Positions 17,668 through 62,799 of a DNA stretch of 64,000 bases are shown here, in pieces. Every line of letters begins with the position of its first letter. Positions within the stretch are counted from its first letter, which is position 1. Source of the stretch: a virus. The translations under genes and the position numbers were made by a program. The notes beneath the pieces were generated by a model, which saw only the letters and a list, made by a program, of their open reading frames with translations, searched no databases and was not told where the DNA came from. Location: positions 66,932 to 130,931 of the IMG/VR virus record IMGVR_UViG_3300028837_002886. One strand, 5' to 3'.

Positions 17668-18803
17668 TTATCTTTGTGGGGACAATAGTATCTTTGCAAT
17701 ATTTGACTTAATGAGGGATCTGATATCTTCTTTAGTGGTGTCGCGGTCTACCCAAATACTAAATATCTCACTAAGTATCTCTTGGTGAGGAGTGCTTTTG
17801 GGCCACACTTTGTATAACATAAATTTCGCATGCGTGCGCACAAATATTTTGTTCTCTATTTCATCTGTATAATCCAGAACCGAGAAATTGTAGCCTTCCA
17901 GTTGTTCCTCTTGTATTTCTTCTACAACTTCTTCTATTTCATCTATTAACGTCATTTCTCAAAAAAGCTTTGGAGATCTCTTTCCTTACTTTTCGTTTCA
18001 CCTCCCCGATTGTAGCCCCCTCCCTGAAATATACTTTTGCTATCTCATATTCCATATATGATACTTTTGCTACATAGTCCTCGTTGTGTATGACAACCTC
18101 ATAAGTGCGATCTTTAATATTCATTAGCTCGCCTGGAAATGTAACACTAAAATTATGACCTGTTTGCTCATTGATCCGCATCAAAAGCATCCCCAGTTCC
18201 TCGTACATTTTTTCCATGTCATATAAACGATCATCGATTTTTGGAAACATAAGTTTCATTTCTTTAAAAGCCATTTCGCTAACGCCTTTTCTAGTAGCTT
18301 TGGTATTTCTTCCATTCGCATAGCATTTGCTCTTATGTTTATAATGTCAACAGTAAAAGTATTGCTCATATAATCCTGGTCGTCCGGTCTTGTTGCCAGA
18401 TTTGAATCCACAATAGTACGCATTATAAAAGAAATGTGGTATTCGAAAGAATAATCCACGGGCATTACTCTGATTACGTTCGTATCTAAATAGTACATGT
18501 GGCAATTAAACACCTCATTGAAGTGCTTGGCCGATGCGACGGCACATTTTGTTATTTTTATTTCATCGCTAGTATAACTCACCTCAACAACAACCTCTTT
18601 GCTTTCGCAATGCGGCCCATTCGCTTAACTAAAGGGTGATCCAATATGCTATCAAATCTTTCGCCCTGACGGTTTCGTATCTGACCTTTGTCCAGATACA
18701 TAACAGACCACTCTTTCTCTCCTTTGAAGATGATGTTGGCCATTTCTATAGATGTTTTAAGCCGCTCTCTCCGTTCTGCTTCCTTGTCTGTTATTTGGCC
18801 CAT
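17668..18803 (-). CDS. Four small hypothetical proteins (17668..17955, 17939..18274, 18256..18582, 18579..18803), all ending in the AKxLL-type motif
   Basis: C-termini IAKILLSPQR, ISKAFLRND, LAKWLLKK, KAKRLLLR. Confidence 0.7.
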
Positions 18804-20455
18804 TCGTATTTCTCTATATTCGCTTTTGTATATATATGCTTGAGCTCGAGTTTTACTTCTTTAGCCCAACCGAATGTAATCCTTGGGCTTACATATGACG
18901 CCAATGATGTGCCGAGGTTCAGGTCCAATGACTTTTTCTGTAGGTATGTCTGAAGCTTAAGTTTTTCAACCTGTTCTTCAAGTCTGATGATCCGTTTTGC
19001 CCACATATCTTTTTTGTGTCTGTAAGATTTGTTGGCCCTGTAAATGGCTCCTCTTAGGTTCGAGTTCTTGTATTTTCTTTTATAGTTGGCAACCTTTCTT
19101 TGTTTTTCTTTCAAGGCTTGCGACAGCTCCTTCTTGCTTATTTCTTTATATGCCTTTAGGAGCTTTTTCTTGTCTATGAGTTTTGCTTGTTTATTTTTCA
19201 AACCCTTTTTAGCTGCTTCCGTCGGTGTCTTGCGATGGTTGAGTTTCTTGGCCACCAGCATATTTGCTTCTTTGAAAATCTTGATCTTTTCATTAACAGA
19301 AAGGTTCTTATCTTTATGCTCATTCAAGTAGTTTCTCATAATAGCGGTTGCTAATGCTGTCCGGAAAACTTTCGCAGTAAGACATGGCTCAAACTGTCCC
19401 AAGAGTTCGTTGACATCCTTGGATGTTACATTGGCGAAAACCTGGTCATCGGGCTTCTTGTTTTCCATGAGCTTCTTTATGTTAGCCACCGTCTTTGCCG
19501 GTAGCTCCGCATAATCGCTGTATAATATACTGTCCTTGCCTAGAAACTTGAAGTATGTATAATGCTCATTGTCGTCGGAAAACTCGATATGCTTTCTCAG
19601 TAAAGTGGTAGCTCCGTATGTGTCAGCTTCGTCTTCATCTTTTTCATCACCAACCCTGAAACCGAGTCGGGCTATCAAACTACACACAACTGCGGTTTCC
19701 CTGTCGAACTTGCTGTCCATTCTGCTGTCGATAAAGTCAATCGCTTCCGGCATTTTGTCAATCAGCTTCATGGCTTTTTCGAACTTTTCGACATCATTGG
19801 TTTGTCTGATGTATGCCTTGGGACTTGGCATAACATACTTGTAATTACCGGTGAGTTTATCAAACCAAAACGCGAACCACATCGCATCATGATTGTGAAC
19901 GATGTTTCCCCATTTGCCAGCGGGATTGGGAGCATTTTCCCCAACGTTAAGGGTGACATCTTCAGAAGTGACGCGAGGCTTCCACCTGCCCCTAAGTGGA
20001 TTTTTACCTCGACCCATAAATATTCCGGGCGGCTCGATTATATAGTTTGCAATCTCTATTTTTTTGCCATCCATGATGGCAACGCCGAACTTTTCTTTGC
20101 GAGCCGCCTTTTCGGCTTTTTCTTCTTCTTTTTCCTCTTTGCCCCTATTTTTCTTCTTTTCTTTCTCTATTTGAATTTTGTTGTAGTATTCCGTGAAATC
20201 CCAATCATCGGGGAACCTTGTCGCGACCAAGTCAGCAGGGAGCTTTTTCTTCAGGTCGGCCCAGAAGTTTTTCTGATAAACCTTGTCAAGAACATACTGA
20301 GTTTGGAGCCTGGCTGCCCAATGATAAATCATTTCTTCGGCATCCGGATTACCATTGAACGATACTGGCTTTCCTTGAACCTTTATTGGAAAACCTTTGG
20401 GTTCGAAAGGTGGTGAAAATGATGGGCCATTGTGTCTAAGAGTTGTCCACTTCAT
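18791..20455 (-). CDS. DNA topoisomerase IB, eukaryotic/archaeal long type
   Basis: KWTTLRHNGP, EPPGIFMGRG..PLRG; catalytic residues in FRVGDEK, FLGKDSI, KVFRT, LNHRK, GTSLASYVSPR. Confidence 0.93.
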   Translation of the reverse strand: MKWTTLRHNGPSFSPPFEPKGFPIKVQGKPVSFNGNPDAEEMIYHWAARLQTQYVLDKVYQKNFWADLKKKLPADLVATRFPDDWDFTEYYNKIQIEKEKKKNRGKEEKEEEKAEKAARKEKFGVAIMDGKKIEIANYIIEPPGIFMGRGKNPLRGRWKPRVTSEDVTLNVGENAPNPAGKWGNIVHNHDAMWFAFWFDKLTGNYKYVMPSPKAYIRQTNDVEKFEKAMKLIDKMPEAIDFIDSRMDSKFDRETAVVCSLIARLGFRVGDEKDEDEADTYGATTLLRKHIEFSDDNEHYTYFKFLGKDSILYSDYAELPAKTVANIKKLMENKKPDDQVFANVTSKDVNELLGQFEPCLTAKVFRTALATAIMRNYLNEHKDKNLSVNEKIKIFKEANMLVAKKLNHRKTPTEAAKKGLKNKQAKLIDKKKLLKAYKEISKKELSQALKEKQRKVANYKRKYKNSNLRGAIYRANKSYRHKKDMWAKRIIRLEEQVEKLKLQTYLQKKSLDLNLGTSLASYVSPRITFGWAKEVKLELKHIYTKANIEKYEWAK

Positions 20456-20763
20456 AATAGAACATCCGCCTTTAGTAAGAGTTTTGCTTTTTCCCTCTTG
20501 GTTATTTCTCTATAAAAGCCGTCGATAAGCAGTTGGTATATATCCATCTTGTGCATCCGGTCAATGCCCGCGACCTCCAACGTATCGATATTTAGTTCAA
20601 AAACCTCTGTCATATGGCTGTATTTTATTTTTTGCTGACCTTTTCTGGGATGAAAATCTGTATCATCGATATGGCCCGGATTAAATATGATATAGCGCTT
20701 ATTTCTTATGTCATAAAGGACACGATTTTGCTTTATGTTGTAGAGAACTTTTATGTTACGCAT
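20452..20763 (-). CDS. Hypothetical protein
   Basis: Likely start MRNIKV; ends KREKAKLLLKAD. Confidence 0.6.
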   Translation of the reverse strand: MRNIKVLYNIKQNRVLYDIRNKRYIIFNPGHIDDTDFHPRKGQQKIKYSHMTEVFELNIDTLEVAGIDRMHKMDIYQLLIDGFYREITKREKAKLLLKADVLL

Positions 20764-21091
20764 TTTTGATGGCATCTGCCTGCTCTCTAATGAGTTTTCT
20801 CGAACTATAGTAAAGCTTATCCCAGTTTTTTGTTCCGAAACCAAACTCGGAAGCCTCGAGATTTTGTTTCTTTTTCTTGTTTACCCGCTTGGAGAGTTTT
20901 TCATAAAGACCGCTGCTCTGTCTATCTTCAAACTCGTCTAAAATTTGCTGGATTTTAGGACCTATATATTTTGTACTGCCGTTTTTGACTGACTTGGCGG
21001 CATTGTGAAAAGCCCACTGTCTTGGATCGCCTGACCTTTTATAAAGTTCAGCGATTTCCTTCAGGTGTTGCGAAGCCGTCATTTTTATCAT
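20756..21091 (-). CDS. Stand-alone DNA polymerase X N-terminal helix-hairpin-helix domain
   Basis: LKEIAELY...AFHNAAKSV...YIGPKIQQILDEF...LYEKL...GFGTK. Confidence 0.6.
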   Translation of the reverse strand: MIKMTASQHLKEIAELYKRSGDPRQWAFHNAAKSVKNGSTKYIGPKIQQILDEFEDRQSSGLYEKLSKRVNKKKKQNLEASEFGFGTKNWDKLYYSSRKLIREQADAIKNA

Positions 21092-21405: not shown

Positions 21406-21411
21406 GTATAC

Positions 21412-21440
21412 ATTATAAGTGGTTTTTGCTGATTTGTAAA
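21412..21440 (-). promoter_or_regulatory. Sigma70-type early promoter TTTACA-N17-TATAAT
   Basis: Near-consensus hexamers with a 17-nt spacer; ATG 6 nt downstream (leaderless-like). Confidence 0.8.
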
Positions 21441-21445
21441 GCTTT

Positions 21446-23335: not shown

Positions 23336-23360
23336 TTATCTTGGTGCCCGACAAAGATAA
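23336..23360. promoter_or_regulatory. Back-to-back AAGATAA motifs (TTATCTT-N11-AAGATAA) between divergent genes
   Basis: Inverted copies at 23336-23342 and 23354-23360 in a 59-bp divergent gap. Confidence 0.6.
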
Positions 23361-23387: not shown

Positions 23388-24029
23388 ATGAAGAAACTAC
23401 TTTTAGTGTTGTTGTGCTTATTCGTAGCATTTCCGCTGTTCGCGTGGAATACGGCTGAGTACAATAACCCAACTCTTGAAGAATACAGCTGGTATGTGCG
23501 CGAGTTGCCGATGCACTCTATACTATTCAAAGATGGTGAGCAGACAGAAAAATACTATACTGAATATTGCTTGTTTTTTGGAAACGAGCTAGCGGAGAAA
23601 ATCAACCATGATATGAGCGCAAGCGGTTTGCTGCTGGCGATATATATGTTTAAACCAGCCGATAGAGAAGAACGAGAAGATTATCCACTAGGCTGGCAGA
23701 TCGAGTTAATCGATAACTCTAGAGGCATATATTATATGTGGCCAGCGCTGGCAAAAGATATCTGGCCGAAACTACCAGACATCATGAAACACACTCTTAA
23801 AGCGCTTGGTGCGAGAACTCCTGGTTTAATGATGATATATTTTACGCCGTATACAAACACTGTTTCTGTTTTCTATAAGGAAAGTTACTCCGAAAATGAG
23901 AATTTTTACAAAGCTAAGTTAAGAAAGCTTCAGTTTTACTTCGATAAATTGGAAAATTTTGAAAAGGAAGTTAAAAATCCATGGCAGGGCGCTCCAGTTT
24001 GGTTAAATCCTCCAGAAGAGATTGAATAA
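23388..24029 (+). CDS. Secreted protein, paralogue of 60471..61088
   Basis: Signal peptide MKKLLLVLLCLFVAFPLFA; shared WYVR, EY.L.FGNE, FY.AKL, EKE..NP. Confidence 0.8.
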   Translation: MKKLLLVLLCLFVAFPLFAWNTAEYNNPTLEEYSWYVRELPMHSILFKDGEQTEKYYTEYCLFFGNELAEKINHDMSASGLLLAIYMFKPADREEREDYPLGWQIELIDNSRGIYYMWPALAKDIWPKLPDIMKHTLKALGARTPGLMMIYFTPYTNTVSVFYKESYSENENFYKAKLRKLQFYFDKLENFEKEVKNPWQGAPVWLNPPEEIE

Positions 24030-25440: not shown

Positions 25441-27303
25441 TTATTGTTGTCTCTTTACTGGTGCCCATCCGGCTGCTATCATTTCTTCAGGTTTGGTTAC
25501 ATAAGGGTTGATTCGTATAACGTTGCCTAATGGAAGTTGATGCTTAATGGGTACGCTTCCTTCGTGAGCTATTTTCTCCCACCATTGCACATTAATGTGA
25601 TCAACCGAAAGAAGACGTTTGGCTATCATAGTCCTAGGTTTCAATTTCACTTACAATCCTTACTACAATCAAATTAAAGCACTCGTCGTTCTTTTTCAAG
25701 AGCTTTGAGAAAAAGGATGGTTTGCGCAGCAAAACCGCGCAATGCTTTTGGTAATCCTCTTTTGTCTCTTCTGTTATAACCTCATCCTCGCAGAGCTGGT
25801 CCAGCAGTATATTTTTGACTTTTTGGAACTCTTCTTCCAACGCGCTTCTTGTCATATTAAACATGTTTATTGTTCCCATAATTACTCCTCTTTCAAATCG
25901 TCTCTGGCTGAGTTTTTGCTATTCTTGTTGGTAAAATTTTCTTGTTTGAGACTTTGAATTATTCGATAATACTTGTAGGTTTCGTCAATAACCTCTGCGC
26001 GCACGACACCGAGCCAATGTTTATATTGTTTTTTATAATCTTCTTCGTCTTCTATGGTAACAGGAATGGCAATACCACCCTGAACTTTAACACTTTCAAA
26101 GTCATCCACGTTTTTTGTGAGTTGAAAATTAACAGTTAGAGTTATTTCCTTAGACATATTATTCCCTTTTGATTTATATATGCTATCACATCCAAACATA
26201 AGCGCGTAATAATTAGCGCAGTCGCTGCCCCGGCCACTAACTGAAGAGCGAAAATGTCAGGAGTATTGTTGAATAAAACAAACGCACCAACGACAAAAGC
26301 TATTTTTGAAACCAAACCAAAAAGAGTCATTTTACTAGTTTTCCTTTTGCGATTGCTCGTTTTCTTTGAGGGGTGTTCTTGCCGAATATATAACCATACA
26401 TATCTATGCCGCGGGCCCAATCAGCATATAGAGCCGCCCTGTCTTTCGCATCTATTTCTATTTCAGGGCAGTTTTCTGAAGTATTCTCGTACTTCCACCC
26501 CATACGTGCTGGACTTGCTTGACCGCCATCAATGAATAAATTACCACATGAACAGTAATGAAAATCATGGATTGCGCGACTGTATATAATATCGCCGCAT
26601 AAAGTGCATTTTATACCGCTCACTATCATATTAAAAGCTCCTTGGCGTGTTTCTTTTTTATTAAAGGATCTATTATTTCGTATATACTTGAGTTGCGGTT
26701 TGATAAGCGCGAAATCTCTGCTACTAATATCTATTTTCTTCAGTTTCATCCTTGTTGCTCTCGCGCAGTATAAAGACTGCTTTTTTGGAGTTGAGCTTCT
26801 TTATAAGTTTTTCGTTTTCCACCAACTCGAGACACCGAAAACTTGGGAGCCTTTCCCAATGTTGTCTTTGGAACTTGCCGGTCTTTTTCTTATAGGCAAT
26901 CATCATCATGCCTTTGTAGTGTAGTTCTTGGGCATACAAGTATATCTCGTCCTTGCGGTCAAGAGGCCAGGCCTTCATGAACCATTTACCCAAAAGAGAG
27001 TTGAGCATTATTTCATTTGCCGTCATATAATAGATACCTCTTCGCGTATTCTCGTTTTGTCAAAGGTCTTGTTTCGTTTCTTGTAAGAGCCCTGAATGTG
27101 CTAGCCTTCCACCAGCTATGCTTACTTTCGCAATGGTCTCTCGACATATAGCTATCCATTCTGACAAAATACATAATCCTACCAGCGTTGGTCTTTCTGT
27201 GTCTTAGCACGGTATAGAATTTGCCATTGTCGTTCCATGTTTTATCGGACCACCTGAAATCTTGGCCTGCGTATACACTACCAACCTTTATTTTTCGTGA
27301 CAT
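25441..27303 (-). CDS. Run of small hypothetical proteins, including a Cys-rich zinc-binding protein (26327..26749)
   Basis: Coupled ORFs; 26327 has KCTLCGDIIYS..HDFHYCSCGNLFIDGG. Confidence 0.6.
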
Positions 27304-28060
27304 CCAACACCTTCTTTACCAACTTGACTGTGCGAATGGCTTTGTTTTTATCGCTGACATCAGGAGGCAAATTCGTTATAGCCTCCATAACCAAGTCAAA
27401 CATCTCCATTAATTTTTTCGGAGTCCATTCTTCCGTCGGCTCTGTAGGATTTAACAGTCTTTTAGCTCGTTCGGTTCTTTCTTTTGCCATTCGTAACATT
27501 CCTTATACAGCCTCTTATGTATTTTATCGACTTCTTTTCGACACGATTCATACGTTTTGTTTTGCCACGTTTCACACTCTTTTTTCATGGCTTCAATCTC
27601 CGCGGCCGTTGTCCTCTGCGGTTTTTCCAGTGGAGGATTTAATAAGGCTTTTGCTTTTTTTGTTTTTGGTTTGGCCATATGTAATCAACTACCTCTCGTT
27701 TAGTCATCTTTCTCATCGTGGTGTTGCCACAACTCCAGGTTATCATCAAGATACTCTTCAAGGTTAATCTTGATACGATGTGGTGTTTTCCACATTTCCC
27801 AATTTTCTCTTTCTTGATCAAGTGGTTGTCGCGACCGTATGATCTCGCCCCACATTTCTTCCACTTCGCTGGCTGTTTTCTCTGGCGGGTTCAAAAGGTC
27901 TTTAGCTCTTTTTGTTTTCTCTTTTGGCATGACGTCTTATCTCTTTTATAATGTTATTGTCGAACTCATGGGCCATTTCTTCAGATACAATACGCCGTAG
28001 TAATTCTTCGACAGACGGCGGATTGAGAAGCTCTCTGGCTTTTTTTGCTTTTTCTGTCAA
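27278..28060 (-). CDS. Four tandem small proteins sharing an N-terminal K-x-A-[KR]-x-LLNP motif (27278..27490, 27451..27678, 27700..27930, 27902..28060)
   Basis: RAKRLLNPTE, KAKALLNPPL, RAKDLLNPPE, KARELLNPPS (the last translated by hand, TTG start). Confidence 0.7.
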
Positions 28061-28331: not shown

Positions 28332-29270
28332 TTATTTTGTTTCGGGGAGGGGGCACCACTCTGGTATTTCCAAAGATTCTTCTAACCTCAGATCTTTTTC
28401 CGAACGTTTTATTTGACGGGATTTTACGGAGCAAACGTAGCCACTATTCCAGTAACAATCATGAACATCCTCGAACTCAAGACATGGGCACTCGTTACAA
28501 TAGTTGATCTCATATTTGAGTTCTCGGCACATGATAGTTCTCTGCGTGAATTGGTAGAACTATCTTGTCTCGATTATGATTTCAGATAAGCTTTGATTAT
28601 ACTATTACCAAGTTTTTTTAGGTTCTTTTTCAGATCTTTAATGTGACATATTTTTTGTTTATCCAAGAACACTTCGTCGTTAGCGACCACAATGTCACCT
28701 CTGTATATGGCATCAACTCTATCTCTCGGCGGAGGGGTTTGCCAAGTTTTTCTTTTCCTCTGGCTCAAAGTTGTCGCAGAGTCTTTTATTCCGAAGTCCG
28801 GTTTTATAGGTCCCATTTTTCTCCTCTTTTTATTTAGTCCTGGTGCAAATTCAGGTCCCATTTCCTTCTCTCAACATTAGTTTTGCCAACTCGCGCTTTG
28901 ATAAGTCTATGCCACCTGTCAAAGCTACATTTACGTATCTGCCACGAATGAACGCTCCCATTACGGGTTCCTTGAAAAGTTTATCCTCACAGCTATCAAA
29001 ACTCACCTGAAACAGCAACATTCCGTTTCTACGAATGAAGTTATATTTATTAGGATCTCTACTCACCAACACACACGCTACATTATTGTAGAACATCCAA
29101 ATGTTATAAAAGCTTTTAGAAAAAAGCTTTTCTTGTTCGTAATCATACAGCTGCCAGATTGCTTTATATTGATCTGGTTCCTCGAAGGAGATTGCGTAAA
29201 GATCTTTGTCAACTTTCTCTATCAGCTCCGCTTTGAGAATAATCTTGTCATTCTTTTTTAAAGTTTTCAT
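28332..29270 (-). CDS. Three hypothetical proteins (28332..28532 Cys-rich, 28574..28861, 28851..29270)
   Basis: ORF track; the last two end in motif A-like tails. Confidence 0.6.
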
Positions 29271-29309: not shown

Positions 29310-29316
29310 GGACTAT

Positions 29317-30518: not shown

Positions 30519-30519
30519 T

Positions 30520-44957: not shown

Positions 44958-47533
44958 TCACTCTTTTAACACTTTCTTTACTATATGTCTGGTTAGATTT
45001 CTAGTAACGGACTTTCTATCACTGAGGTTTCCCAACTTTGTTCCGTCGATGAATATGTCATTGTTGTTATCTATATACATCCTGCCAATGGACTTCCTAT
45101 TATCCTGTTTGGCTTTAGACCAATCGCTTGACCAATCGGATATTATACTCGGGTCTATACAATCGCTATGCTTGGCTCCAATTTCACAATCTAGTTTCAT
45201 TTTATTTCCAACATTCTCTTGGCAATAGCTCTTTTTATAATCTTGCCAAGCTTTTTTGGATCAGCATGTCTACTAATAAGAACTTTGCCGTCCCAATAGA
45301 TGTCATCATCTTTTATTTCTATCCGCCAGCTGTTTTTCGGAACGGCCGGGGCCGCGTCGTCGTCGAATGAGAAAACCCCTCCATCATAATCTACAACTTC
45401 CATCAAACGTGGTGTGTCTTCAAGTGTCATTTTATCCCCTCTATATATGTTTTACTCCCCGTATCTATACTCGTCAAAACCTTCGGTGATATCCTTTTTG
45501 ATGACAATTTCTATAACTTTGTTTTCAAAGTCGACTTCTATATCAATCCATCCCTTTTCGATATAGCTCCAGCAAAGCTCCAGTGCATCATTGCGCGTGA
45601 ACTCGGGATTTATATATTGCAAATGAGGTTCAATAACTCGACAAAACAATAGTTCGTCTATCACCTGAACCTTTTCCGGATGTGTCTGAAAAGTGCGCTC
45701 TCTTAGAGTCATTTTTTATTGATATCCTCTAGCTCATCCATGAAGTCTTCTAGACCTTTTTCCGCATTATCCTTGGTGACCTCTATAAGTTTGAGCATTT
45801 GATCATGGTTGATTATTTCAGCTCTGTACAGCATTAACGCCATGCCAAGCATGTATGTAAAGAATTCAATTGTCATTTTGTTCTCCTTCAACCGCGATAT
45901 TATAAAAGAGCTTCATCTTCGAAGATTTTTTTCGCGAAGATTTTGAGTTTTTCGTTTGTTCTTATTTTGTCTCTAGTAACTAATAATTTTCCTCTGCTTG
46001 CGATCTCCTCTTGTATATCTATGTCTAGGTCCTTGTACATTCCCATGAAAGTTTTAGATATGGATAAAAAGAAAAGAGACAGCATTCCCTGAATGGCATA
46101 ATAAATGCCGTCAGACATGACCAAACCATCTGGTATATTTCCAAAAAAATCATCGTAGTTTTGACCAGGATGATCGTCTATCCATTCTTGAAACAGCTTC
46201 TTGTCTTGAGCCAAAGCATACATTACATCTTTTATCTTATCGCTATCAACCACAATCTTGCGGTTTTGTATATACTCGAAATAGTTGCGCATTGCTTTTT
46301 GAGTAAGTAACTGATGTGGCCAGATTGTCTTATTTTTACCAAGATGAATTATTTGAGATTCAACATACCATCGCATATTAAAGTGGCTGTCGTCTTTGAC
46401 TATGTCATATAGTTTTTCGAATGCTTCCCAATGTTGATGTTTTTTTGGATCTGATCGATTGCAAAAGCGAGACCACTGCTGTTTGGATGTAGAATCGTGG
46501 TTACAGATCCTGTTGTAAAATACGCGCGCCAGGTCATAGATAGTATATTCTCTTGTGTTGAACTTTAAGTCAACTAGATTATGAGCCATTTTTAGATTTA
46601 AAATTGGGACATTGAATTATTTCTACTTTCGAGCTCTGCTTACATGTGTTTACGCAGCGCTTACACATTTCGTGCTTTTGTCTCCAATATGTGGTTTTGA
46701 TTTGTTCTATTGTGACTTTGCTCTTACTCACTCTATTTCCATTATTAATATTTTTTTGGGTCCCAGCGCGGATGAACGAAAAACGTCGCACTCTCCAAGA
46801 GTTTCTGCTGAAATAGTCAAGTCGATTTTTACATCTCTAGGCCCCTTGGGAATTGGGCAGCCAGGGCCTCCTACCGGCATTAATATGGGATCATATGTTA
46901 CATTCATTGCGGTTATGTAACCTGTTAATATTACTTTATCCTTTAGAATAGCCTTGGCCACTTTTTTTTTCATATCATCTTCGGCCATTTATTTAACCTT
47001 CTCCCAGTTTTTGGCCGCATAAACCCACTTTAAACCATCATGGAACAAAGCAACATCTGAATATATGTCTGCGTCTTCTGATGTACATTGCTCAACGCCT
47101 TCTAGAAAACTACCTTCTTGGATCACGTTTATCTGCCAAATGGCCATTTCCATCTTGCCGTACTTGATTCCAAGCAAAGTTCCATCGCTGCATATTAACA
47201 GCACTTCATCGTCGTAGCAATCGACTTCGCCGCGTACATCTCCATCGACTTCTATTAAATCGTCGCTCGTTCCCCATATTTTAGTCATTTCTCGTGGCCC
47301 CTTGTGATTTTTATAGCGTATTAAAATACCTTCTGAAAAAGATACGAAAGCCCGAAAAACGCAGCCGCACATACTATAAACGTCGATACCATTATAAATA
47401 CGGTCACCAAAGCCGCGCTGCTCTTAATAGAATCGGCTACAGTACGATATATGTTTTTGACAGGCGCCGGCCTAGACCAGGCGCCCGTCTTCAGGAGAGT
47501 CTTTGCTGCTTCTTTTTTAATCTTCTTTCTCAT
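44958..47533 (-). CDS. Run of hypothetical proteins (including 44958..45200, 45197..45430, 45452..45712, 45900..46589, 46728..46988, 47321..47533)
   Basis: ORF track; several carry motif A. Confidence 0.55.
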
Positions 47534-48991: not shown

Positions 48992-49013
48992 CTAGTCCAT
49001 AGAGAAAATCTTA

Positions 49014-49876: not shown

Positions 49877-50529
49877 TTATTCTCCCTCGGACTTGGTTTC
49901 TTCTATATATGCCTCATCGGGTTTCTTTTTACGATAGGCGTTCCGGAAGTTGCTCACTGCCGACATGATTCTCTTATCCTCTGAAGGTTTTTTCAGAACA
50001 GGCTCGGCTTTGGCTCTTTCCTCTGTTTTCTTTTTTAAAAACGGAAGTTTCATTTTTTCCTCTCTTGAATATTCTGTTGATTTTTTATCAATAAACCGTT
50101 TTACTGTAATAAACGGAAGTCCATCGAATAACGCTTCAATAGCGTTTAATTTTATTCTATTTATTGTCTTCATGGACCTCAAGTACTCCGTCTCTCATCA
50201 ATCTCTTCATTTCGTGGGTAAACCCATCGACGTCGATTGTTTCACCGGATTTGATTACGTGATTCTTACCCTTAAACCGCAGAGTAAGTGTGTTTTTGGT
50301 GTTGTTAATGAGCGTTATTTTTTCATACTCAAGCAGCGTTTTAGCCACTTTGGTTAGGATCTTCCTTTTGGCCATTCCTTAGAATCTCCTTGGCTAATAA
50401 CATTTTCTTCTGGCTCTCTGTTAGCGGGTTGCCGCCCATACTAATAAATACCGGTTTACCATCTGGTCCATGGAACCAACTAAAAGGAACTTCAATCTGT
50501 CTAGCTGTATTCTCCACAATCTTCACCAC
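49877..50529 (-). CDS. Three small hypothetical proteins (49877..50182, 50157..50375, 50341..50529)
   Basis: ORF track. Confidence 0.55.
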
Positions 50530-50886: not shown

Positions 50887-51744
50887 TCACTCGTGTAACA
50901 GTATTTTAGCTTTGTCTTTCTTTCTTTTTGCTCTATGTAGCTCTATTTCGCGCTTGATTTTCTCACGCCAATTCGGTATAAACTCATCACACAACGCGTC
51001 GACTATTTCCTGTCTTTTGTTTCTGAGCAAATCCAGACAATCACGACAGGCCACGGTACTCTGTGACGAAAAATCGCGATTTTCGTGGTGTTGCTGGAAA
51101 GACTCAAAGACGCTTTGGATTATGTCATCCACGAAGTTTTGTTTATCTTTTTTTCCCAAAAAGCTTTCTGTGGCGGCTTCCAATTGGTCTATATAATCAG
51201 GACTTAATCTGTCTCCGCAAAAATCACAGTAGTATCTAATCATTCCCGGGCCTCAGCAATAATTTCGCATAATATTTTTTATACTTCTCTTTAGTGACTT
51301 TCCGGTAACCGCGGCCATTGAGCGTCTTTTTTAGATATATATCATGCACATCTCTCGCGAAAGTGCTATGTTTATCAACGCCTTGAACAAACCACCATGC
51401 GGCTTCCTGGGCCGAATCTGAACATTCCCAGTAATCTGTTATGTTAACAAGTGTGTCTTTGTGGATCCAAATAGAATCCAGTTGTATGTTATTCACCGCC
51501 GCTACCAATCCAACACCAGCTTGATTTTAGCCAGTTCTTTTTTCTCCGGTTTTTTACATTTTACTAGTATCCGTTTCATGCTCCAGGGAGAAATACCGTT
51601 TATCGTGCGAGATCGATAGGGATACCTTGAGTTGGTTAGATTATTTCTGCACGCTACATATACATTCCAAAGATCTAAATCGTCGGATTCTATTTTCAAG
51701 ACCGCCCCTCCGTCAACGAATATGTCTCCATCGATCAGTTTCAT
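50887..51744 (-). CDS. Three small proteins ending in motif A (50887..51243, 51236..51508, 51502..51744)
   Basis: KAKILLHE, YAKLLLRPG, LAKIKLVL. Confidence 0.65.
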
Positions 51745-58343: not shown

Positions 58344-58724
58344 TTATATTTTGTGCAATTCTTCCGCGGAAGGATCGTTCTTTTCTGAATAATTTGCAAA
58401 TATTATATATAGCGCGCTTGCCACTGGATGATTCAGGTGATCATCCGCTTCGTAGTATTTATCCACCATATCGATGAGCCAATCAAAAGTTGTGTTCGGG
58501 GGAAAGATGATGTTAGATATCTCATCGGCTTCTTCTCGGGTCACATAGTCATTACCGAAAAAGAGAAAAACGGATATTTGTGCACCGGCTGCGTAACCGG
58601 CCAGATACGTTGTTTTCATTTCGAGATCCCATCGTCTCCAATCTGTGCCATCCTCCATGAATGAATCTGCAAATAATGGACAAGCAATCAGCATTATCAT
58701 CAATACAAAAATAATCTTTTTCAT
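58344..58724 (-). CDS. Secreted helical protein
   Basis: Signal peptide MKKIIFVLMIMLIACPLFA; GTDW...YLAGYAAG. Confidence 0.7.
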   Translation of the reverse strand: MKKIIFVLMIMLIACPLFADSFMEDGTDWRRWDLEMKTTYLAGYAAGAQISVFLFFGNDYVTREEADEISNIIFPPNTTFDWLIDMVDKYYEADDHLNHPVASALYIIFANYSEKNDPSAEELHKI

Positions 58725-58730: not shown

Positions 58731-59951
58731 TTATCCTAAGAATTTTATTGTTTTACCGCCTAATCTTTCTGGATTTAAGAAGCGCTCAAACTGTAACTTG
58801 TGTACAATAGGATCAACATCTGTTATGTTCAGGGCATAGGCTATAAGAGATCCTGCTGCGCTTCCCCTGCCAGGTCCTACATAAATATTTTCAGACTTGG
58901 CCCAGCCAACTATATCTGCCACTACTAAGAAATAAGAAGAAAATCCTGCGCTATAGATGATCTTGAGTTCATAAGCCAATCTCATCATGTAGGTGTCATT
59001 TCGCAAGCATCTCCTATCCAGACCCTCTACGCACTTTTTGCGGAGTATCTCATCAAGGTCGGCGCCCTCGAACTCTGGAATAGGAGGCACGATATAATCA
59101 TGCTGCTTAATATCAAACACCTCTATTTTATCGGCTATCTTTACGGTCGTATCACACCACCCCTCAATGTCCTTTTTATCGTAGCCGGTGTTTATGCCTT
59201 CTCTGATGATTTCTTCTCTTGAGTGCAAATATATATTGTCTTCGTCGAATTGAAGCCCTTTGTCGTCGCCTACTTTACCGCCAGTATTGACCAACAGCAG
59301 TTTGGCGTGATCGTCTTTCTGATCTGCCGTTATATAGTGGGCATCAGCGGTGATAATGGCTGGAACCTTCAACATTTTCCAGAACTTGTATAGTTTTATT
59401 TCTATGGCTTTTAATCTCTCGGTCTGATGTGGTTGAAACTCTATATAAAAGTCATCGCCAAATACATCAAGATACCAATCTAGGTTCCTCTTGGCCGCTT
59501 TTATATCATTGTTTATCAACATGCTTGTTACATCGTTGGCAAGACAGGCGGTTGTGGCTATTATATTTTTACTGTACGCCTTCAAGGTCTCTCTATCTAT
59601 ACGCGGTCTTTTATAAAAACCATAACGATGACCAATATATTGCATCTGCATTATGTTACGATAACCTTCGATGTTTTTCGCCAACAGTACAACATGAAAA
59701 CGTTTTTCTCCCTTTGGTTTGACTTTCAGATCATCAACCATATAGGCCTCAACACCTATCAACGGTTTGATCTTGTATTTCTCGGCAAGGTGCCAGAACT
59801 CATAAACTCCTGACATTGTTCCATGATCGGTTATAGCTAAGGCAGGCTGCCTTAGTTCTTCTGCTACATACTTAAGGCGTGCTTTTTTCGTCCCTAGCCC
59901 ATCGAGTGCACTAGAATCGGTGTGTACGTGAAGATTTACGAAGTTATCCAT
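58731..59951 (-). CDS. dnaE: DNA polymerase III alpha (DnaE), N-terminal part: PHP domain plus start of palm
   Basis: HVHTDSSALDG, AITDHG, GVEAY, TADAHY, GPGRGSAAGSL, FERFLNPER, then stop. Confidence 0.92.
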   Translation of the reverse strand: MDNFVNLHVHTDSSALDGLGTKKARLKYVAEELRQPALAITDHGTMSGVYEFWHLAEKYKIKPLIGVEAYMVDDLKVKPKGEKRFHVVLLAKNIEGYRNIMQMQYIGHRYGFYKRPRIDRETLKAYSKNIIATTACLANDVTSMLINNDIKAAKRNLDWYLDVFGDDFYIEFQPHQTERLKAIEIKLYKFWKMLKVPAIITADAHYITADQKDDHAKLLLVNTGGKVGDDKGLQFDEDNIYLHSREEIIREGINTGYDKKDIEGWCDTTVKIADKIEVFDIKQHDYIVPPIPEFEGADLDEILRKKCVEGLDRRCLRNDTYMMRLAYELKIIYSAGFSSYFLVVADIVGWAKSENIYVGPGRGSAAGSLIAYALNITDVDPIVHKLQFERFLNPERLGGKTIKFLG

Positions 59952-59960: not shown

Positions 59961-60368
59961 CTATGTCTTGAGTAAGCTTTTGACACGACATCTTTCGCAC
60001 ATATTGCGCAACCAGCTATGCTTATAATTTTGTACTGCTACTTTTTTAGTCGAACCGCAAATCTCACACGTTTTTGCGCATTGTTTTTGAGCCTCGCTGA
60101 TCAACTCGATTACCTTTACGTACACATCACCGCACTCATGCACATAAACTCTGAGCTCGGCAAACTTTTCTTTTACCTGCACAATCTCAAAATCTTTCGG
60201 AGGACGAAGGCTATCTATTTTAAGAATTAGGTCCAAAATAATATCAAACCAGCCGTCGCCGCAAGCAAAACCCTCTCTGTGACCCATGCGGCTAACCGAT
60301 TGATCTTCTTTGTGTTCGAAAAAATGTGGAAACCGATCGAATATTTTTTTCTCTAATTTGTCAGTCAC
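59961..60368 (-). CDS. Phage hypothetical protein with zinc-binding C-terminus
   Basis: CGDGWFDII, QVKEKFAELRVY, CEICG...CERC. Confidence 0.7.
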   Translation of the reverse strand: MTDKLEKKIFDRFPHFFEHKEDQSVSRMGHREGFACGDGWFDIILDLILKIDSLRPPKDFEIVQVKEKFAELRVYVHECGDVYVKVIELISEAQKQCAKTCEICGSTKKVAVQNYKHSWLRNMCERCRVKSLLKT

Positions 60369-60470: not shown

Positions 60471-61088
60471 ATGAGAAGAATACTGTTTTCACTTTTAGCT
60501 TTGTTGTTTTTATTCGGTCTCGGTTCCGGATTGTTCGCTCAGAAAGATGCCTATAGATGGTACGTCCGAACTATTGAGCTTAAAGTTACATTCTGGGAAG
60601 ATGACGAGCAAAAGACGGAATATCGTGAAGAATATCTCTTATATTTTGGCAACGAAAAGACGTTAGAAGTAGAAGCTCAACTCGCAAGATCTAGAATGGG
60701 TTTTGGAGCCATGGTGTTCCATCCTATACCAGAAGTGACAGAAAGCATGAGCTTCCAGGCCCCCGAAAGATGGTACGTGCAACCATACGACCATAGTAAG
60801 CATGATTCTCCTAAATTATATCCATTGTTTGAGGATCGCGTATGGAACAACATGCCGCAGAACATCAAGCTCATCATAATGGCCCTGGATTACAAAGATG
60901 ACGATCTTATTCTTATTCATATGAGAGGCAACACTGGCAGCATTAGTATTTGTTACCACCCTAAGTTTGACGAAGACAAGGAGTTTTATGGGGCAAAATT
61001 GGAGCAGCTTTTGGATTATCTAAACAACCTGGAAGATCCTGAGAAAGAAATACCTAATCCAATTTTACCAATTAAGAACACAATATAA
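60471..61088 (+). CDS. Secreted protein, paralogue of 23388..24029
   Basis: Signal peptide ending GLFA; SD AGGAGG; shared motifs. Confidence 0.8.
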   Translation: MRRILFSLLALLFLFGLGSGLFAQKDAYRWYVRTIELKVTFWEDDEQKTEYREEYLLYFGNEKTLEVEAQLARSRMGFGAMVFHPIPEVTESMSFQAPERWYVQPYDHSKHDSPKLYPLFEDRVWNNMPQNIKLIIMALDYKDDDLILIHMRGNTGSISICYHPKFDEDKEFYGAKLEQLLDYLNNLEDPEKEIPNPILPIKNTI

Positions 61089-61101: not shown

Positions 61102-61725
61102 ATGACTAGAGAAGAGTTTCTGTCCATCGAACATCCATCTATAGAAGAGTACCGCTATTCAGACGTTGTGGTGTACTTTTTGTGGAATAAACCAAGCAAA
61201 AGTAGTATCACCTTGAAAGGCTCAGTATGGATCTACACGGATGGCAACAAAAGCATTGCACTAAAGAACGAAGTATTAAAGGAGCTTAAAGATCTTGAAG
61301 CCGCGGCTTTTTCTATAAGAAAAAAGAATTTAATATTGTTAAACCCCGGTAAAAAATATGTTATAGGTCGACTTTTCGGTGAAAAGGTGCGACAGGAATA
61401 AAATATGAAATCAGCTGACACCATAAGCGATGTCGCAGTCCCGTTTCTTGTTAAAAGCAAAAGCGGTCAAGGCTCTACAAAAAGCTGGGAATACATATAC
61501 GTAACAGAGGTCTACGATCGATTAGCCAAGAAAGAAAGTAAAGTCGGGGCTGTTGTGAGACTAATGCGGTTCGGTAGTAACGTTGGCGTATTAATAGAAA
61601 AGGGTAAAGAAGCTCAATACATGTGGTCACATATATTTTCACCGAGGGCGCAACAGGTTGAGATGAAACGAGGTAAAAAAGATCTACTTGTTGACCTTTT
61701 CACTTTTCCTGACAGAATGATTTAA
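61102..61725 (+). CDS. Two small proteins ending in motif B (61102..61401, 61405..61725)
   Basis: KKYVIGRLFGE, KKDLLVDLFTF; AAAGATAA at 61087. Confidence 0.65.
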
Positions 61726-62154
61726 ATTTTTTCTTAACTCCTTCTTCATGCCCAACTGGATTTCCTTGTTGGTCTCGTGTTCAATTACTTCATAATTATG
61801 ATCAAAAAACTTGATGTTTTTTACCCAATCATTACGGCTGTCATCTGAGCTTATCATTTTTGCTATATCGGAGCGCTTCTTTTCCTTGCGCATGTTGTCC
61901 ATTACATCGCGACGAATGACTTGATAGAAATAAGAAAACGCATACTTGTTTTTGGTGGGATCATACTTGTCCAGCTTTTTCCAGGAAAGTATAACAGCGC
62001 TCTGAATATAGTCATCGCGCTTGGAGTAGGCGATGTCAAAGTGGTGAGTTATCTGGCTGCCCATTTCATAAAAGTTGCTGAGCAGTTGCTGCATCTTCTC
62101 CGGATCCCTTCGGTCATTATAAAGCTTTTCCATTTCCTTCTTGTCAATGTTCAT
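61684..62154 (-). CDS. gp55-like (late) RNA polymerase sigma factor
   Basis: Region-2-like DDYIQSAV...KYDPTKNKYAFSYFYQVI; short, no region 4; next to primase. Confidence 0.7.
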   Translation of the reverse strand: MNIDKKEMEKLYNDRRDPEKMQQLLSNFYEMGSQITHHFDIAYSKRDDYIQSAVILSWKKLDKYDPTKNKYAFSYFYQVIRRDVMDNMRKEKKRSDIAKMISSDDSRNDWVKNIKFFDHNYEVIEHETNKEIQLGMKKELRKNLNHSVRKSEKVNK

Positions 62155-62162
62155 GTTTTCTC

Positions 62163-62799
62163 CTAGTCTTTTAATAAAAACTTAGCTTTTTCTTTCTTAG
62201 TTGTAGCCACTTCCCAAAATTTCGCCTCGCACATGTAACTTAGCTGTATTGGAACCGCTCGTGTTCTAGAGCCACTGCCATCAGTTGCCTCTAGAATCAT
62301 CGAGTCCTTGCCTTTTTCCAAGACCTTGTACAGACCTGAGTGCGTTCGAATCAGGTCGCCTTCTTTCATGTTTTTGTACGGCGACAATTTTCTCATTATG
62401 CGATTTGCCGCCTTTTGGGCCTTTGAAGGATTCAACTATTATATCCGCCTTGTCTTTAAAATATGCTTCGAAAGGTCGCCAAGTGTCTAGGCTCTCTTTT
62501 CTTTTTTTCTTTTTCGACAAAAACTATACCCTCCCTAACAATAGCATCTTGGCCGCCATTGCTTTTCCTTTTTTGCATTCTACAATAATAACTTCGCGCC
62601 TCTCAACCGCCGCGGCGAGCCACTCGACCCCACAAGAGGTAGTGTAACCAGAAGGAAGGCCCTTAGTTTTTACAAGATCTATTATTTTTATCGACTCGCC
62701 GTCGTTATACCGGTAATCTCCCTCACGGAACCCTGTTACCACATAGTAATCTTTTTGCTCTTTTAAATAAAAAACATCGTACCTTTCGGGTTCATACAT
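62163..62799 (-). CDS. Two small proteins ending in motif A (62163..62435, 62524..62799)
   Basis: KAKFLLKD, AAKMLLLG. Confidence 0.6.

What the first reader, a model, noticed from the sequence alone, without database searches (positions are those of the whole stretch)
17668..62799. Motif A (K-[KR]-x-x-A-K-x-L-L) at the termini of about 25 unrelated small proteins
Seen at C-termini: IAKILL (17668), ISKAFL (17939), LAKWLL (18256), KAKRLL (18579), KREKAKLLL (20452), KREYAKRYL (27013), IIKAYL (28574), KRELAKLML (28851), IVKKVL (44958), IAKRML (45197), LAKEIL (50341), KKDKAKILL (50887), KKYYAKLLL (51236), KKELAKIKL (51502), RVKSLL (59961), KKEKAKFLL (62163), AAKMLL (62524). Seen near N-termini: IAKRLL (25441), four AKxLLNP proteins (27278-28060), VAKAIL (46728), AAKTLL (47321), IAKKLL (48510), VAKTLL (50157). 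The bodies of these proteins are mostly unrelated and the motif occurs at either end. Inference: a portable amphipathic helix binding one common partner (docking, localisation, oligomerisation or degradation signal).
Basis: partly seen in the sequence, partly recalled or inferred. Interest (0 to 1): 0.85.

Follow-up and report, generated by a model that had tools for sequence, protein, structure and literature searches.

The report
Shared terminal peptide tag, phage proteins
About a fifth of the small proteins of this large uncultured phage carry the same short basic helix (K-x-K-x-x-h-A-K-x-L-L) at one end or the other although their bodies are unrelated, which looks like an address label read by one partner that is still unknown.

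Summary
In my gene call of the whole 130,931-bp virus record (208 proteins), AKxLL lies 11 times in the first 20 residues, 9 times in the last 20 and 2 times in the 32,770 interior positions. Within-protein shuffles give 0.28, 0.18 and 1.15, and 0 of 100 reach either terminal count.

Selection acts on the peptide. The coding pattern is in frame at the termini, and codons follow genome usage. An unconditioned Lys at -4 extends the motif.

With the tag masked, the 36 tagged proteins show no pairwise similarity. The one sequenced relative, a 189-kb phage, carries the tag on a largely different gene set. Other phages do not. DUF7695 homologues outside the clade lack the tail, so it is an add-on.

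AlphaFold2 puts the tag in a short terminal helix, in one case inside a low-confidence tail. Tagged genes follow non-late promoter-like motifs (crude).

My reading is a portable docking or recognition tag. Its reader is not identified. Candidates are an AAA+ machine of the host or the phage's own MoxR/vWA-peptidase pairs.

This scan has noted comparable tags, with other sequences, in other huge phages.

The parts
8347..8379 (-). N-type tag KEIAELAKDLL of gene 8221-8400 (59 aa)
   Evidence: strict pattern. It is the only strict tag behind an AAGATAA-class motif.
17683..17715 (-). C-type tag LIKSNIAKILL of gene 17668-17955 (95 aa)
   Evidence: The G001 orthologue keeps MIKSAMAKDLL (tag identity 0.64, rest 0.25).
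17960..17992 (-). C-type weak tag KVRKEISKAFL of gene 17939-18274 (111 aa)
   Evidence: Ser in place of Ala.
18265..18297 (-). C-type tag LLEKALAKWLL of gene 18256-18582 (108 aa)
18588..18620 (-). C-type tag MGRIAKAKRLL of gene 18579-18803 (74 aa)
   Evidence: Its AAG AGG codons may double as the ribosome-binding site of the next gene.
20473..20505 (-). C-type tag ITKREKAKLLL of gene 20452-20844 (130 aa), just upstream of topoisomerase IB
25609..25641 (-). N-type tag KPRTMIAKRLL of gene 25441-25650 (69 aa)
26336..26368 (-). C-type weak tag QRKRAIAKGKL appended to a DUF7695 domain, gene 26327-26749 (true start probably Met41)
   Evidence: Pfam. Alignment: close relatives keep the tail, distant homologues end before it. 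In 48 loci of other phages, no recognised DUF7695 homologue has it. AF2 helix at residues 87-98 of 100.
27031..27063 (-). C-type tag LTKREYAKRYL of gene 27013-27303 (96 aa)
27452..27484 (-). N-type tag KERTERAKRLL(NP) of gene 27278-27499 (73 aa)
   Evidence: The G001 orthologue has KEKTARAKRFL (tag identity 0.73, rest 0.21).
27640..27672 (-). N-type tag KPKTKKAKALL(NPP) of gene 27451-27678 (75 aa)
27892..27924 (-). N-type tag KEKTKRAKDLL(NPP) of gene 27700-27930 (76 aa)
28025..28057 (-). N-type tag TEKAKKARELL(NPP) of gene 27902-28060 (52 aa)
28583..28615 (-). C-type weak tag KLGNSIIKAYL of gene 28574-28861 (95 aa)
   Evidence: Its G001 best match ends in AKKLLKE.
28872..28904 (-). C-type tag LSKRELAKLML of gene 28851-29270 (139 aa)
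   Evidence: Homologues at 42-46% identity keep K-x-E-[LI]-A-K-x-h-L; one has S-T in place of A-K. In the AF2 model the body is confident and residues 118-139 have pLDDT<50, with a helix at 125-131.
44967..44999 (-). C-type weak tag NLTRHIVKKVL of gene 44958-45200 (80 aa)
   Evidence: Val in place of Ala.
45209..45241 (-). C-type tag IIKRAIAKRML of gene 45197-45430 (77 aa)
46944..46976 (-). N-type tag DMKKKVAKAIL of gene 46728-46988 (86 aa)
   Evidence: The G001 orthologue starts MKKEIAKSFL.
47492..47524 (-). N-type tag KIKKEAAKTLL of gene 47321-47533 (70 aa); the protein has a hydrophobic C-terminal segment
48906..48938 (-). N-type tag SKKTKIAKKLL of gene 48510-48992 (160 aa), followed by CxxC and hydrophobic segments
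   Evidence: The start is uncertain; Met13 would put the tag 12 residues in.
50331..50363 (-). N-type tag KILTKVAKTLL of gene 50157-50375 (72 aa)
   Evidence: The G001 orthologue has ITKAARNLL.
50380..50412 (-). C-type tag QKKMLLAKEIL of gene 50341-50529 (62 aa), 12 residues from the end
   Evidence: L001 13349-13537 ends ...RIVAKNLLRKYNNDKADN.
50896..50928 (-). C-type tag KRKKDKAKILL of gene 50887-51243 (118 aa)
51254..51286 (-). C-type tag KYKKYYAKLLL of gene 51236-51508 (90 aa)
51517..51549 (-). C-type weak tag PEKKELAKIKL of gene 51502-51744 (80 aa), directly after the DnaE C-terminal part
59970..60002 (-). C-type weak tag MCERCRVKSLL of gene 59961-60368 (135 aa)
   Evidence: Val in place of Ala. 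The weakest of the listed sites.
62172..62204 (-). C-type tag TTKKEKAKFLL of gene 62163-62435 (90 aa)
62539..62571 (-). C-type tag KGKAMAAKMLL of gene 62524-62799 (91 aa)
   Evidence: Alignment of 4 orthologues, one only 25% identical: A83, K84, L86, L87 and L88 are invariant.

Best explanation
Motif A is a portable peptide tag: a short basic amphipathic helix with consensus K-x-K-[KTR]-x-h-A-K-x-[LFIM]-L. It is usually ended by G, P, N or by the end of the protein, and it sits in the free tail at whichever end of a small protein. It was added to many unrelated early or middle accessory proteins of one clade of large phages. I read it as a docking or recognition peptide that lets one common reader protein handle this whole class of proteins.

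Shown:
- strictly terminal placement;
- selection at the peptide level;
- unrelated bodies;
- add-on status in one family;
- conservation through gene turnover;
- restriction to this clade.

Inferred:
- that a protein reads the tag;
- my preferred mechanism, which is recognition by an AAA+ machine that needs a free terminal peptide. This could be a host unfoldase or protease of the ClpX/FtsH/Lon kind, giving class-wide timed turnover or remodelling. Or it could be the phage's own MoxR plus vWA-metallopeptidase pairs. I give about 0.25-0.3 to the AAA+ sub-reading and 0.55 to the general reading.
For: Terminal enrichment is about 40-fold over interiors, and 0 of 100 shuffles reach the terminal counts.

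The nucleotide pattern GCN-AAR-NNN-Leu-Leu falls in frames 0/1/2 as follows: 12/0/1 near starts, 9/2/1 near ends, 1/3/0 in interiors. Codons at the motif positions follow genome usage: Ala GCC 10, GCA 10, GCT 7, GCG 6; Lys AAA 19, AAG 13; all six Leu codons.

Unconditioned Lys at -4 (33 K and 6 R of 50) and at -6 (18 of 50).

Bodies are unrelated. They are of different kinds: a DUF7695 zinc-ribbon-like domain, a WGR domain, a beta-rich body, and proteins with hydrophobic segments.

The tag is an add-on. DUF7695 homologues P0125-P0127 end before the tail. In 48 loci of other phages, no recognised DUF7695 homologue carries it.

Orthologues keep the tag while the rest drifts. Over 7 pairs, which include the helicase, mean tag identity is 0.57 against 0.39 for the rest. 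A83, K84, L86-L88 are invariant down to 25% identity. The tag is kept at 42-46% identity.

The relative G001 has its own tagged set. Only 7 of the 36 tagged G000 proteins have a reciprocal best hit there, yet G001 has 19 terminal hits. A matrix trained on G000 finds, at 12 bits or more, N 4, C 5 and interior 4 in G001 (0.71, 1.17 and 0.09 per 1000). In 1,606 control proteins it finds N 0, C 0 and interior 4.

AF2 models show a terminal helix. In the 139-aa protein it lies in a tail with pLDDT<50, detached from a confident body.

22 of 31 tags are followed within 4 residues by G, P, N or the protein end.

Tagged genes follow sigma70-like or CATATATA motifs (9 of 35 and 21 of 62 genes tagged). 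Only 1 of 95 genes behind AAGATAA is tagged.

Precedent from passages read:
- ClpX degrons sit at the N- or C-terminus. The lambda O tag contains T-A-K-I-L and the MuA tag ends in basic residues followed by A-I (PMC12723719).
- vWA domains of MoxR systems capture a substrate peptide, and zincin peptidases act on small variable proteins with a conserved C-terminal peptide (PMC7159879).

The record encodes two MoxR plus DUF2201 (peptidase and vWA) sets.
Against: No reader was identified, so a common partner remains an inference.

In G001 with longest-ORF starts, AKxLL is not enriched at N-termini: 1 observed, and 19 of 100 shuffles reach that. Interior hits (9) exceed the shuffle mean of 1.72. 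Five of the 16 interior AKx[LIMFVY]L hits lie 15 residues or less after an in-frame Met and may be N-terminal. Others are truly internal in longer proteins.

The tag is not at a fixed distance from the end: 2-12 residues follow LL, and 5-24 precede Ala. This differs from tags read at the very terminus.

Four C-type tags have AAGAGG- or AAGGAG-like K-R or K-E codons that could double as the next gene's ribosome-binding site.

The promoter classes are pattern matches only.

Gene calls are my own simple caller, so N-terminal positions depend on the start chosen.

Only one related genome could be read in full.
Confidence: 0.55

Rival explanations
1. The tag is a general membrane- or nucleic-acid-binding basic amphipathic helix. 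It would localise small proteins to the inner membrane or to DNA/RNA without a protein reader.
For: The tag is Lys-rich with a small hydrophobic face (h at -1, A at 0, L at +3 and +4) and is predicted helical. Membrane-targeting helices of MinD and FtsA also sit at protein ends (recalled, not tested here).
Against: Ala at 0 and Lys at +1 are near-invariant in unrelated proteins, and Lys at -4 is fixed. Lipid-binding helices usually tolerate wide variation (established knowledge). The tag has only two or three large hydrophobic residues. The tag also sits on proteins that already have hydrophobic, probably membrane-spanning segments (47321-47533, 48510-48992), where a membrane anchor would be redundant.
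Confidence: 0.15
2. The tag is the last recognisable remnant of one old, fast-diverging paralogue family, a structural helix of the fold, and not a portable module.
For: Tagged genes stand in tandem arrays: 17668-18803, 27278-28060, 50887-51744, and genome 57872-59231. Small phage proteins diverge quickly.
Against: The tag occurs at the N-terminus in 18 and at the C-terminus in 13 of 31 proteins, which plain divergence cannot give. The bodies include a DUF7695 domain, a WGR domain, a beta-rich body and proteins with hydrophobic segments. DUF7695 homologues outside the clade lack the tail. In one model the tag lies in a low-confidence tail off the body.
Confidence: 0.08
3. The tags bind each other. 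They would form mixed helical bundles that gather the tagged proteins into one assembly (oligomerisation tag).
For: The helix is short and amphipathic, with a small residue (Ala) on the hydrophobic face. One conserved sequence on many proteins would suit mutual recognition.
Against: The net charge is strongly positive on all tags, which disfavours self-association. The helix has only about three turns. This was not tested here.
Confidence: 0.07
4. The tag is a by-product of nucleotide signals at gene junctions (ribosome-binding sites, promoters, A-rich leaders) or of the K/L-rich composition.
For: In 10 of 13 C-type tags the next gene's start codon lies from 10 bases before to 17 bases after the end of the LL codons. 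Four tags contain AAGAGG- or AAGGAG-like codons.
Against: Shuffles rule out composition. The pattern is in frame 12/0/1 near starts and 9/2/1 near ends, and synonymous codons follow genome usage. 18 tags lie downstream of their own start codon. Controls from more than 100 other phage loci show no terminal excess.
Confidence: 0.03

Closest known systems
ClpX degron classes (N-motifs 1-3, C-motifs 1-2; e.g. the lambda O and MuA tags)
   Same: Both are short unstructured peptides at the N- or the C-terminus that mark unrelated proteins for one AAA+ machine. The lambda O tag contains T-A-K-I-L and the MuA tag ends in basic residues plus A-I (passages of PMC12723719). Both are transferable to other proteins.
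   Different: ClpX uses different motifs at the two ends; here one motif serves both ends. Spacing differs (A-K-x-L-L against A-K-I-L). The tag is 2-12 residues from the C-terminal end. Nothing links it to ClpX, and the host is unknown.
Peptide capture by vWA domains of MoxR-vWA systems, and zincin-peptidase systems acting on small variable proteins with a conserved C-terminal peptide (FxSxx-COOH and related types)
   Same: Both have small, fast-diverging proteins sharing a conserved terminal peptide. The phage encodes MoxR ATPases with DUF2201 peptidase and vWA-like proteins. Five N-tagged genes follow one such pair directly. Source: passages of PMC7159879.
   Different: The peptide sequence differs from the four described types. 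The tag is also N-terminal. Most tagged genes are not beside the peptidase. No radical-SAM partner lies next to them. Binding is not shown.
Hub-binding peptides of replication proteins (beta-clamp-binding motif QL[SD]LF, SSB acidic tail partners)
   Same: These are short motifs at either end of unrelated proteins, read by one hub (recalled knowledge). The tagged genes are interspersed with replication genes: topoisomerase IB, DnaE, a gp32-like protein and a primase.
   Different: The sequence does not fit the clamp motif. No clamp gene was found in either record. About 30 clients would be many for a replisome hub.
Membrane-targeting amphipathic helices (MinD, FtsA type)
   Same: Both are terminal basic amphipathic helices that can be moved between proteins (recalled).
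   Different: Here Ala, Lys and Leu positions are fixed, there are few large hydrophobic residues, and the tag also sits on proteins with hydrophobic segments.
Capsid-targeting leaders of T4 internal proteins and encapsulin cargo-loading peptides
   Same: A short terminal peptide shared by unrelated cargo proteins (recalled).
   Different: Those mark late, packaged proteins. Tag A is almost absent behind the AAGATAA-class motif that precedes the structural genes (1 of 95).
Shared terminal tags on orphan proteins of other huge phages noted earlier by this scan (AI notes e1-5411482, e1-5557253, e1-5321851, e1-4772764, e1-831089)
   Different: Those tags are C-terminal, mostly acidic or polar, and sit right at the stop codon. 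Tag A is basic, helical, used at both ends, and set back from the end.

Membership tests
ClpX-type terminal degron | Short peptide in an accessible N- or C-terminal tail | tested here: met
   Tags lie 5-24 residues from the start or 2-12 from the end. One model puts the tag in a tail with pLDDT<50.
ClpX-type terminal degron | Sequence fits one of the five described classes | tested here: inconclusive
   Partial likeness to the lambda O tag (T-A-K-I-L) and the MuA tag (basic residues then A-I), both quoted in PMC12723719. Spacing and the dual-end use differ.
ClpX-type terminal degron | Tag-dependent degradation by the protease | not testable with these tools
   Needs reporter half-lives in host or model strains.
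vWA-MoxR peptide capture / peptidase-linked small proteins with a conserved terminal peptide | MoxR AAA+, vWA and zincin-like peptidase genes present | tested here: met
   In the window: AAA_5 protein 10758-13070, DUF2201 vWA-like 13081-14187 and DUF2201_N peptidase 10022-10768. A second pair lies at genome 59274-61672.
vWA-MoxR peptide capture / peptidase-linked small proteins with a conserved terminal peptide | Small rapidly diverging proteins with a conserved terminal peptide, encoded beside the peptidase | tested here: inconclusive
   Variable bodies with a conserved peptide: yes. Adjacency holds only for five N-tagged genes at genome 57872-59231. Most tags are elsewhere, and the peptide is unlike the described types.
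vWA-MoxR peptide capture / peptidase-linked small proteins with a conserved terminal peptide | Physical binding or cleavage of the tag by the vWA-peptidase protein | not testable with these tools
   No usable result here; needs binding and cleavage assays.
Beta-clamp-binding motif | Consensus QL[SD]LF or QLxLxL, and a clamp to bind | tested here: not met
   The logo has A-K-x-L-L with basic flanks and no Gln. PF02768 was not found in G000 or G001, which are 70% and 79% complete; the host clamp is unknown.
ParA/MinD partner peptide (MinE or ParB N-terminal type) | A ParA/MinD-type ATPase encoded with the peptide-bearing partners | tested here: not met
   PF13614 was not found in either record. 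A host ATPase cannot be excluded.
Capsid-targeting or cargo-loading peptide | Carried by late, virion-associated proteins | tested here: not met
   Tag A follows the AAGATAA-class motif in 1 of 95 genes, against 30 of 97 genes behind the other two classes (classes are inferred).
Membrane-targeting amphipathic helix | Amphipathic terminal helix that binds lipid | not testable with these tools
   Helix and basic charge are seen. Lipid binding needs experiment.

The most novel reading that the evidence does not exclude
The phage runs a two-letter protein address code. Tag A (basic A-K-x-L-L helix, either end) marks early and middle accessory proteins. Motif B (K-x-x-h-h-x-x-h-F at the C-terminus) marks proteins of the AAGATAA class. 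Each tag would be read by one of the phage's two MoxR/vWA-metallopeptidase machines: the intact pair lies in the early region, the split set in the late region. The phage could then handle whole temporal classes of proteins as units, by clearing, remodelling or loading them.
Probability: 0.1. Interest if true: 0.9.

Novelty: new variant of a known kind. Interest (0 to 1): 0.64.

Why it matters
If one reader handles some thirty unrelated orphan proteins through a ten-residue tag, several things follow.
- The tag gives a direct experimental handle (pull-down, tag swap) on the function and fate of phage 'dark matter' genes.
- It gives a simple rule for sorting them into classes from sequence alone.
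- It adds a basic, double-ended example to the terminal tags that this scan keeps finding in huge phages.
- A portable tag read by a bacterial or phage machine could also serve as a tool, for example as a degron or a recruitment peptide.

Tried and rejected
Composition and shuffling as the cause: rejected.

A nucleotide-level junction signal as the cause: rejected as a general explanation. It may explain K-R or K-E codons in four C-type tags.

A paralogue family as the cause: no pairwise similarity with the tag masked.

A phage-encoded beta-clamp or ParA-like ATPase as reader: neither family was found in G000 or G001, and both records are incomplete.

Close relatives:
- megablast against named phages found nothing;
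- topoisomerase IB as a single query found nothing in viral contigs;
- two clade-specific queries found only G001.
The clade is therefore represented here by two records, plus single proteins P0121-P0123, P0129-P0130 and P0132-P0134, whose contigs I could not fetch.

Complex prediction, with the DUF2201 peptidase-vWA protein (alignment of 2) against residues 100-139 of the tagged protein 28851-29270 (alignment of 5): verdict 'no answer', score 0.00 in both runs, controls not run. This is neither for nor against binding.

gp32-like SSB tail, tubulin-like tail, Hsp20, the small sigma factor, the REC protein and a ClpX zinc-binding domain stand-in were considered as readers but not tested. Only one complex job was available and the alignments were shallow.

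Literature: four searches found no description of this motif or of a shared terminal tag in such phages. 'DUF2201' occurs in none of the 12 papers listed. I saw search listings only, except PMC12723719 and PMC7159879, of which I read matched passages. Supplements were not opened and may hold relevant gene lists.

Expression data (sequencing runs) were not consulted.

Full report
**What the window is.** The window is the second half (bases 66,932-130,931) of a 130,931-bp linear virus record, estimated 70% complete. Nearly all genes lie on the minus strand.

Pfam and PHROGs show a large tailed-phage replication and accessory region:
- a DnaE-type polymerase split into two genes (58731-59951 and 51741-53849);
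- a eukaryotic-type topoisomerase IB (18791-20455);
- a helicase, a Toprim primase and a gp32-like single-strand-binding protein;
- a tubulin/FtsZ-like protein, Hsp20 and a small sigma-70 region-2 protein;
- a hybrid histidine kinase, a cREC receiver and RlaP;
- a MoxR-type AAA protein with separate DUF2201 peptidase and vWA-like genes.
Ribosome-binding sites of the GGAGG type are visible.

**Checking the observation.** The 'N-terminal' cases are at the far end of the genes named.

I called genes on the whole record with a codon-usage caller of my own: 208 proteins, 41,081 residues. AKxLL occurs 11 times in the first 20 residues, 9 times in the last 20 and 2 times in the 32,770 interior positions. 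A hundred within-protein shuffles give means of 0.28, 0.18 and 1.15, and none reaches either terminal count. Looser and stricter patterns behave the same way.

With a strict definition, 23 of the 131 genes in the window and 31 of the 208 in the record are tagged. Thirty of the 31 have 170 residues or fewer. The exception is the N-terminus of the helicase (ARNYL; SRNYI in the relative), which I take for chance.

The motif is longer than the pattern used to find it. In 50 terminal hits of two phages, Lys stands at -4 in 33 (Arg in 6) and at -6 in 18, with K, T or R at -3 and a hydrophobic residue at -1. In 22 of 31 tags a G, P, N or the end of the protein follows within four residues.

**Peptide or nucleotide signal.** The nucleotide pattern for A-K-x-L-L on the coding strand falls in frames 0/1/2 as 12/0/1 near starts, 9/2/1 near ends and 1/3/0 in interiors. 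The codons used for Ala, Lys and Leu in the tags mirror genome-wide usage. So the peptide is what is conserved.

One nuance: in 10 of 13 C-type tags the next gene's start codon lies from 10 bases before to 17 bases after the LL codons. The few residues after the tag are therefore mostly the overlap with the next gene's initiation region. Four tags have AAGAGG- or AAGGAG-like codons that may double as its ribosome-binding site. This cannot explain the 18 N-type tags, nor the Ala, the Leu-Leu or the Lys at -4.

**Are the bodies unrelated, and is the tag portable.** With the tag masked, 36 tagged proteins give no BLASTP pair at E<=0.01. Pfam recognises only DUF7695 (26327-26749) and WGR (an out-of-window protein whose tag precedes the domain) among the 30 scanned. 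Others have CxxC pairs or hydrophobic segments.

For DUF7695 the add-on nature is direct. Close relatives keep the tail, while homologues about 50% identical in the domain end before it. In 48 loci of other phages that encode the domain, no homologue recognised by my pattern carries the tail, and the motif is not terminal there (C 0.23, N 0.20, interior 0.18 per 1000).

AlphaFold2 on shallow alignments puts the tag in a terminal helix:
- residues 87-98 of 100, with block pLDDT of 91 and 74;
- residues 125-131 of 139, inside a tail of pLDDT<50 attached to a confident beta-rich body.

**Relatives.** The C-terminal DnaE part has nine close relatives at 60-76% identity. One lies on a 189,375-bp IMG/VR record, which I read in full as G001. 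It is syntenic with bases 41-131 kb of this record: 85 reciprocal best hits out of 208 proteins.

Only 7 of the 36 tagged proteins have a reciprocal best hit there. In those pairs, which include the helicase, the tag is more conserved than the rest (mean identity 0.57 against 0.39). Yet G001 has 19 terminal hits of its own.

A weight matrix trained on 30 tags of this record finds in G001, at 12 bits or more, 4 N-terminal, 5 C-terminal and 4 interior hits (0.71, 1.17 and 0.09 per 1000 positions). In 1,606 proteins from over a hundred other DnaE-bearing loci it finds 0, 0 and 4.

Against this, plain AKxLL in G001 with longest-ORF starts is enriched at C-termini (6 against 0.23) but not at N-termini (1; 19 of 100 shuffles reach it). 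It is also above shuffles in interiors (9 against 1.72). Five of 16 interior hits follow an in-frame Met by 15 residues or less and may be N-terminal. Some sit inside longer proteins.

Single orthologues from other metagenomes keep the tag at 42-46% and 73-74% identity, with one degenerate case.

**Context.** Three promoter-like motifs recur in intergenic DNA:
- CTTTACA-N17-TATAAT (sigma-70-like);
- CATATATA(A);
- AAGATAA.
I assigned each minus-strand gene to the nearest such motif upstream. Tag A then marks 9 of 35, 21 of 62 and 1 of 95 genes respectively. The separate C-terminal motif B marks 2, 0 and 12. The AAGATAA class covers the structural half of the record. This assignment is crude and the classes are inferred, but it places tag A on non-late genes.

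Outside the window a second, intact MoxR (364 aa) plus DUF2201 peptidase-vWA (434 aa) pair lies directly upstream of five N-tagged genes. One of these small proteins shares 17 of its last 19 residues with the C-terminus of the DUF2201 protein.

**How it most likely works.** Five properties point to a docking or recognition peptide read by one partner: a fixed short helix with invariant small and charged positions, placement in a free tail at either end, presence on unrelated small proteins of one expression class, gain as an add-on, and retention while the genes themselves turn over. All of these are shown here.

Two known kinds of machine accept such peptides at either end.
- AAA+ unfoldases and proteases. 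ClpX degrons are N- or C-terminal; the lambda O and MuA tags are basic-hydrophobic and share A-K or K-K-A elements with tag A (passages of PMC12723719).
- MoxR-vWA systems. Their vWA domain is proposed to capture a substrate peptide, and some are coupled to a zincin peptidase acting on small variable proteins with a conserved terminal peptide (passages of PMC7159879).
I therefore prefer class-wide handling by an AAA+ machine, either timed turnover or remodelling of early and middle proteins. My odds for this are only about one in four. Rivals are listed with their odds in their own section.

**Comparison and novelty.** The tag is not a member of any described motif class that I could test. It does not fit the clamp motif, and no clamp or ParA-like gene is present. 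It does not behave like a capsid-targeting leader. It fits the ClpX classes only loosely.

Four literature searches found no description. Earlier notes of this scan describe comparable proteome-wide tags in other huge phages, with different, C-terminal sequences and likewise no reader. Two notes on this same genome saw the N-terminal tags upstream of the window and the split by promoter class.

I rate it a new variant of a known kind (portable terminal recognition peptides) and of solid interest, because it is strong, clean and experimentally approachable.

Noticed in passing
window 446-61725, e.g. 22397-22645, 22642-22902, 35516-35836, 61405-61725: A second C-terminal motif (K-x-x-h-h-x-x-h-F, 'motif B') ends many small proteins. 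By my crude assignment it marks 12 of 95 genes behind AAGATAA motifs, 0 of 62 behind CATATATA and 2 of 35 behind sigma-70-like motifs. It is mutually exclusive with tag A except in one gene.
   Followed up: partly
window 21410-21445, 29280-29316, 62822-62851 (sigma-70-like); 17650-17660, 43016-43023, 45442-45449 (CATATATA); 9999-10005, 23336-23360, 44762-44768 (AAGATAA): Three recurrent promoter-like motif classes lie in intergenic DNA, suggesting three temporal classes. A small sigma-70 region-2 protein is encoded at 61684-62154.
   Followed up: partly
window 58731-59951 and 51741-53849: The DnaE-type polymerase is split into a PHP/N-terminal gene and a C-terminal gene about 4.9 kb apart. A histidine kinase, a dCMP deaminase and small genes lie between them. 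The split is shared with the relative G001. Some relatives' C-terminal parts carry an intein domain.
   Followed up: partly
window 18791-20455: A full-length eukaryotic-type topoisomerase IB (Topoisom_I_N, Topoisom_I and Topo_C_assoc, E down to 5e-61) in a phage, flanked by five tag-A genes; 62% identical in G001.
   Followed up: partly
window 10022-14187 and genome 59274-61672 (window -7657 to -5259): There are two MoxR plus DUF2201 sets. One is intact (364-aa AAA, 434-aa peptidase-vWA). The other has peptidase, a 770-aa AAA protein and vWA as three genes in the order vWA, AAA, peptidase along transcription.
   Followed up: partly
genome 58974-59231 (window -7957 to -7700) and genome 59274-60578: An 85-aa N-tagged protein shares 17 of its last 19 residues with the C-terminus of the adjacent DUF2201 peptidase-vWA protein (E 7e-09). 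This may be a partial duplication or a shared second peptide.
   Followed up: partly
window 41988-42986: A tubulin/FtsZ-family protein (E 1.7e-10), 73% identical in G001. Its acidic tail ends in KFLNV in both phages.
   Followed up: no
window 47517-48491, 50550-50882, 53865-55871: RlaP (RNA-repair nucleotidyltransferase family), a cREC-type receiver and a PAS-HisKA-HATPase-REC hybrid kinase in one phage region. A CCA-adding/poly(A) polymerase-like enzyme and an exoribonuclease lie upstream of the window.
   Followed up: no
window 6725-6994 and 8397-8660; 22397-22645 and 22642-22902; 34270-34623 and 35169-35516: Pairs of small paralogues start with MKKGD/MKY.KGD...Y-type sequences, possibly small beta-barrel domains followed by the motif-B helix.
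   Followed up: no
window 26327-26749: The longest ORF (140 aa) probably over-extends the gene. All eight homologues aligned start at or near its Met41.
   Followed up: yes
window 23388-24029, 38670-39071, 58344-58724, 60471-61088, 30810-31295: Several proteins begin with signal-peptide-like segments ending in PLFA or a Cys, so they are possibly secreted or lipoproteins. None carries tag A.
   Followed up: no
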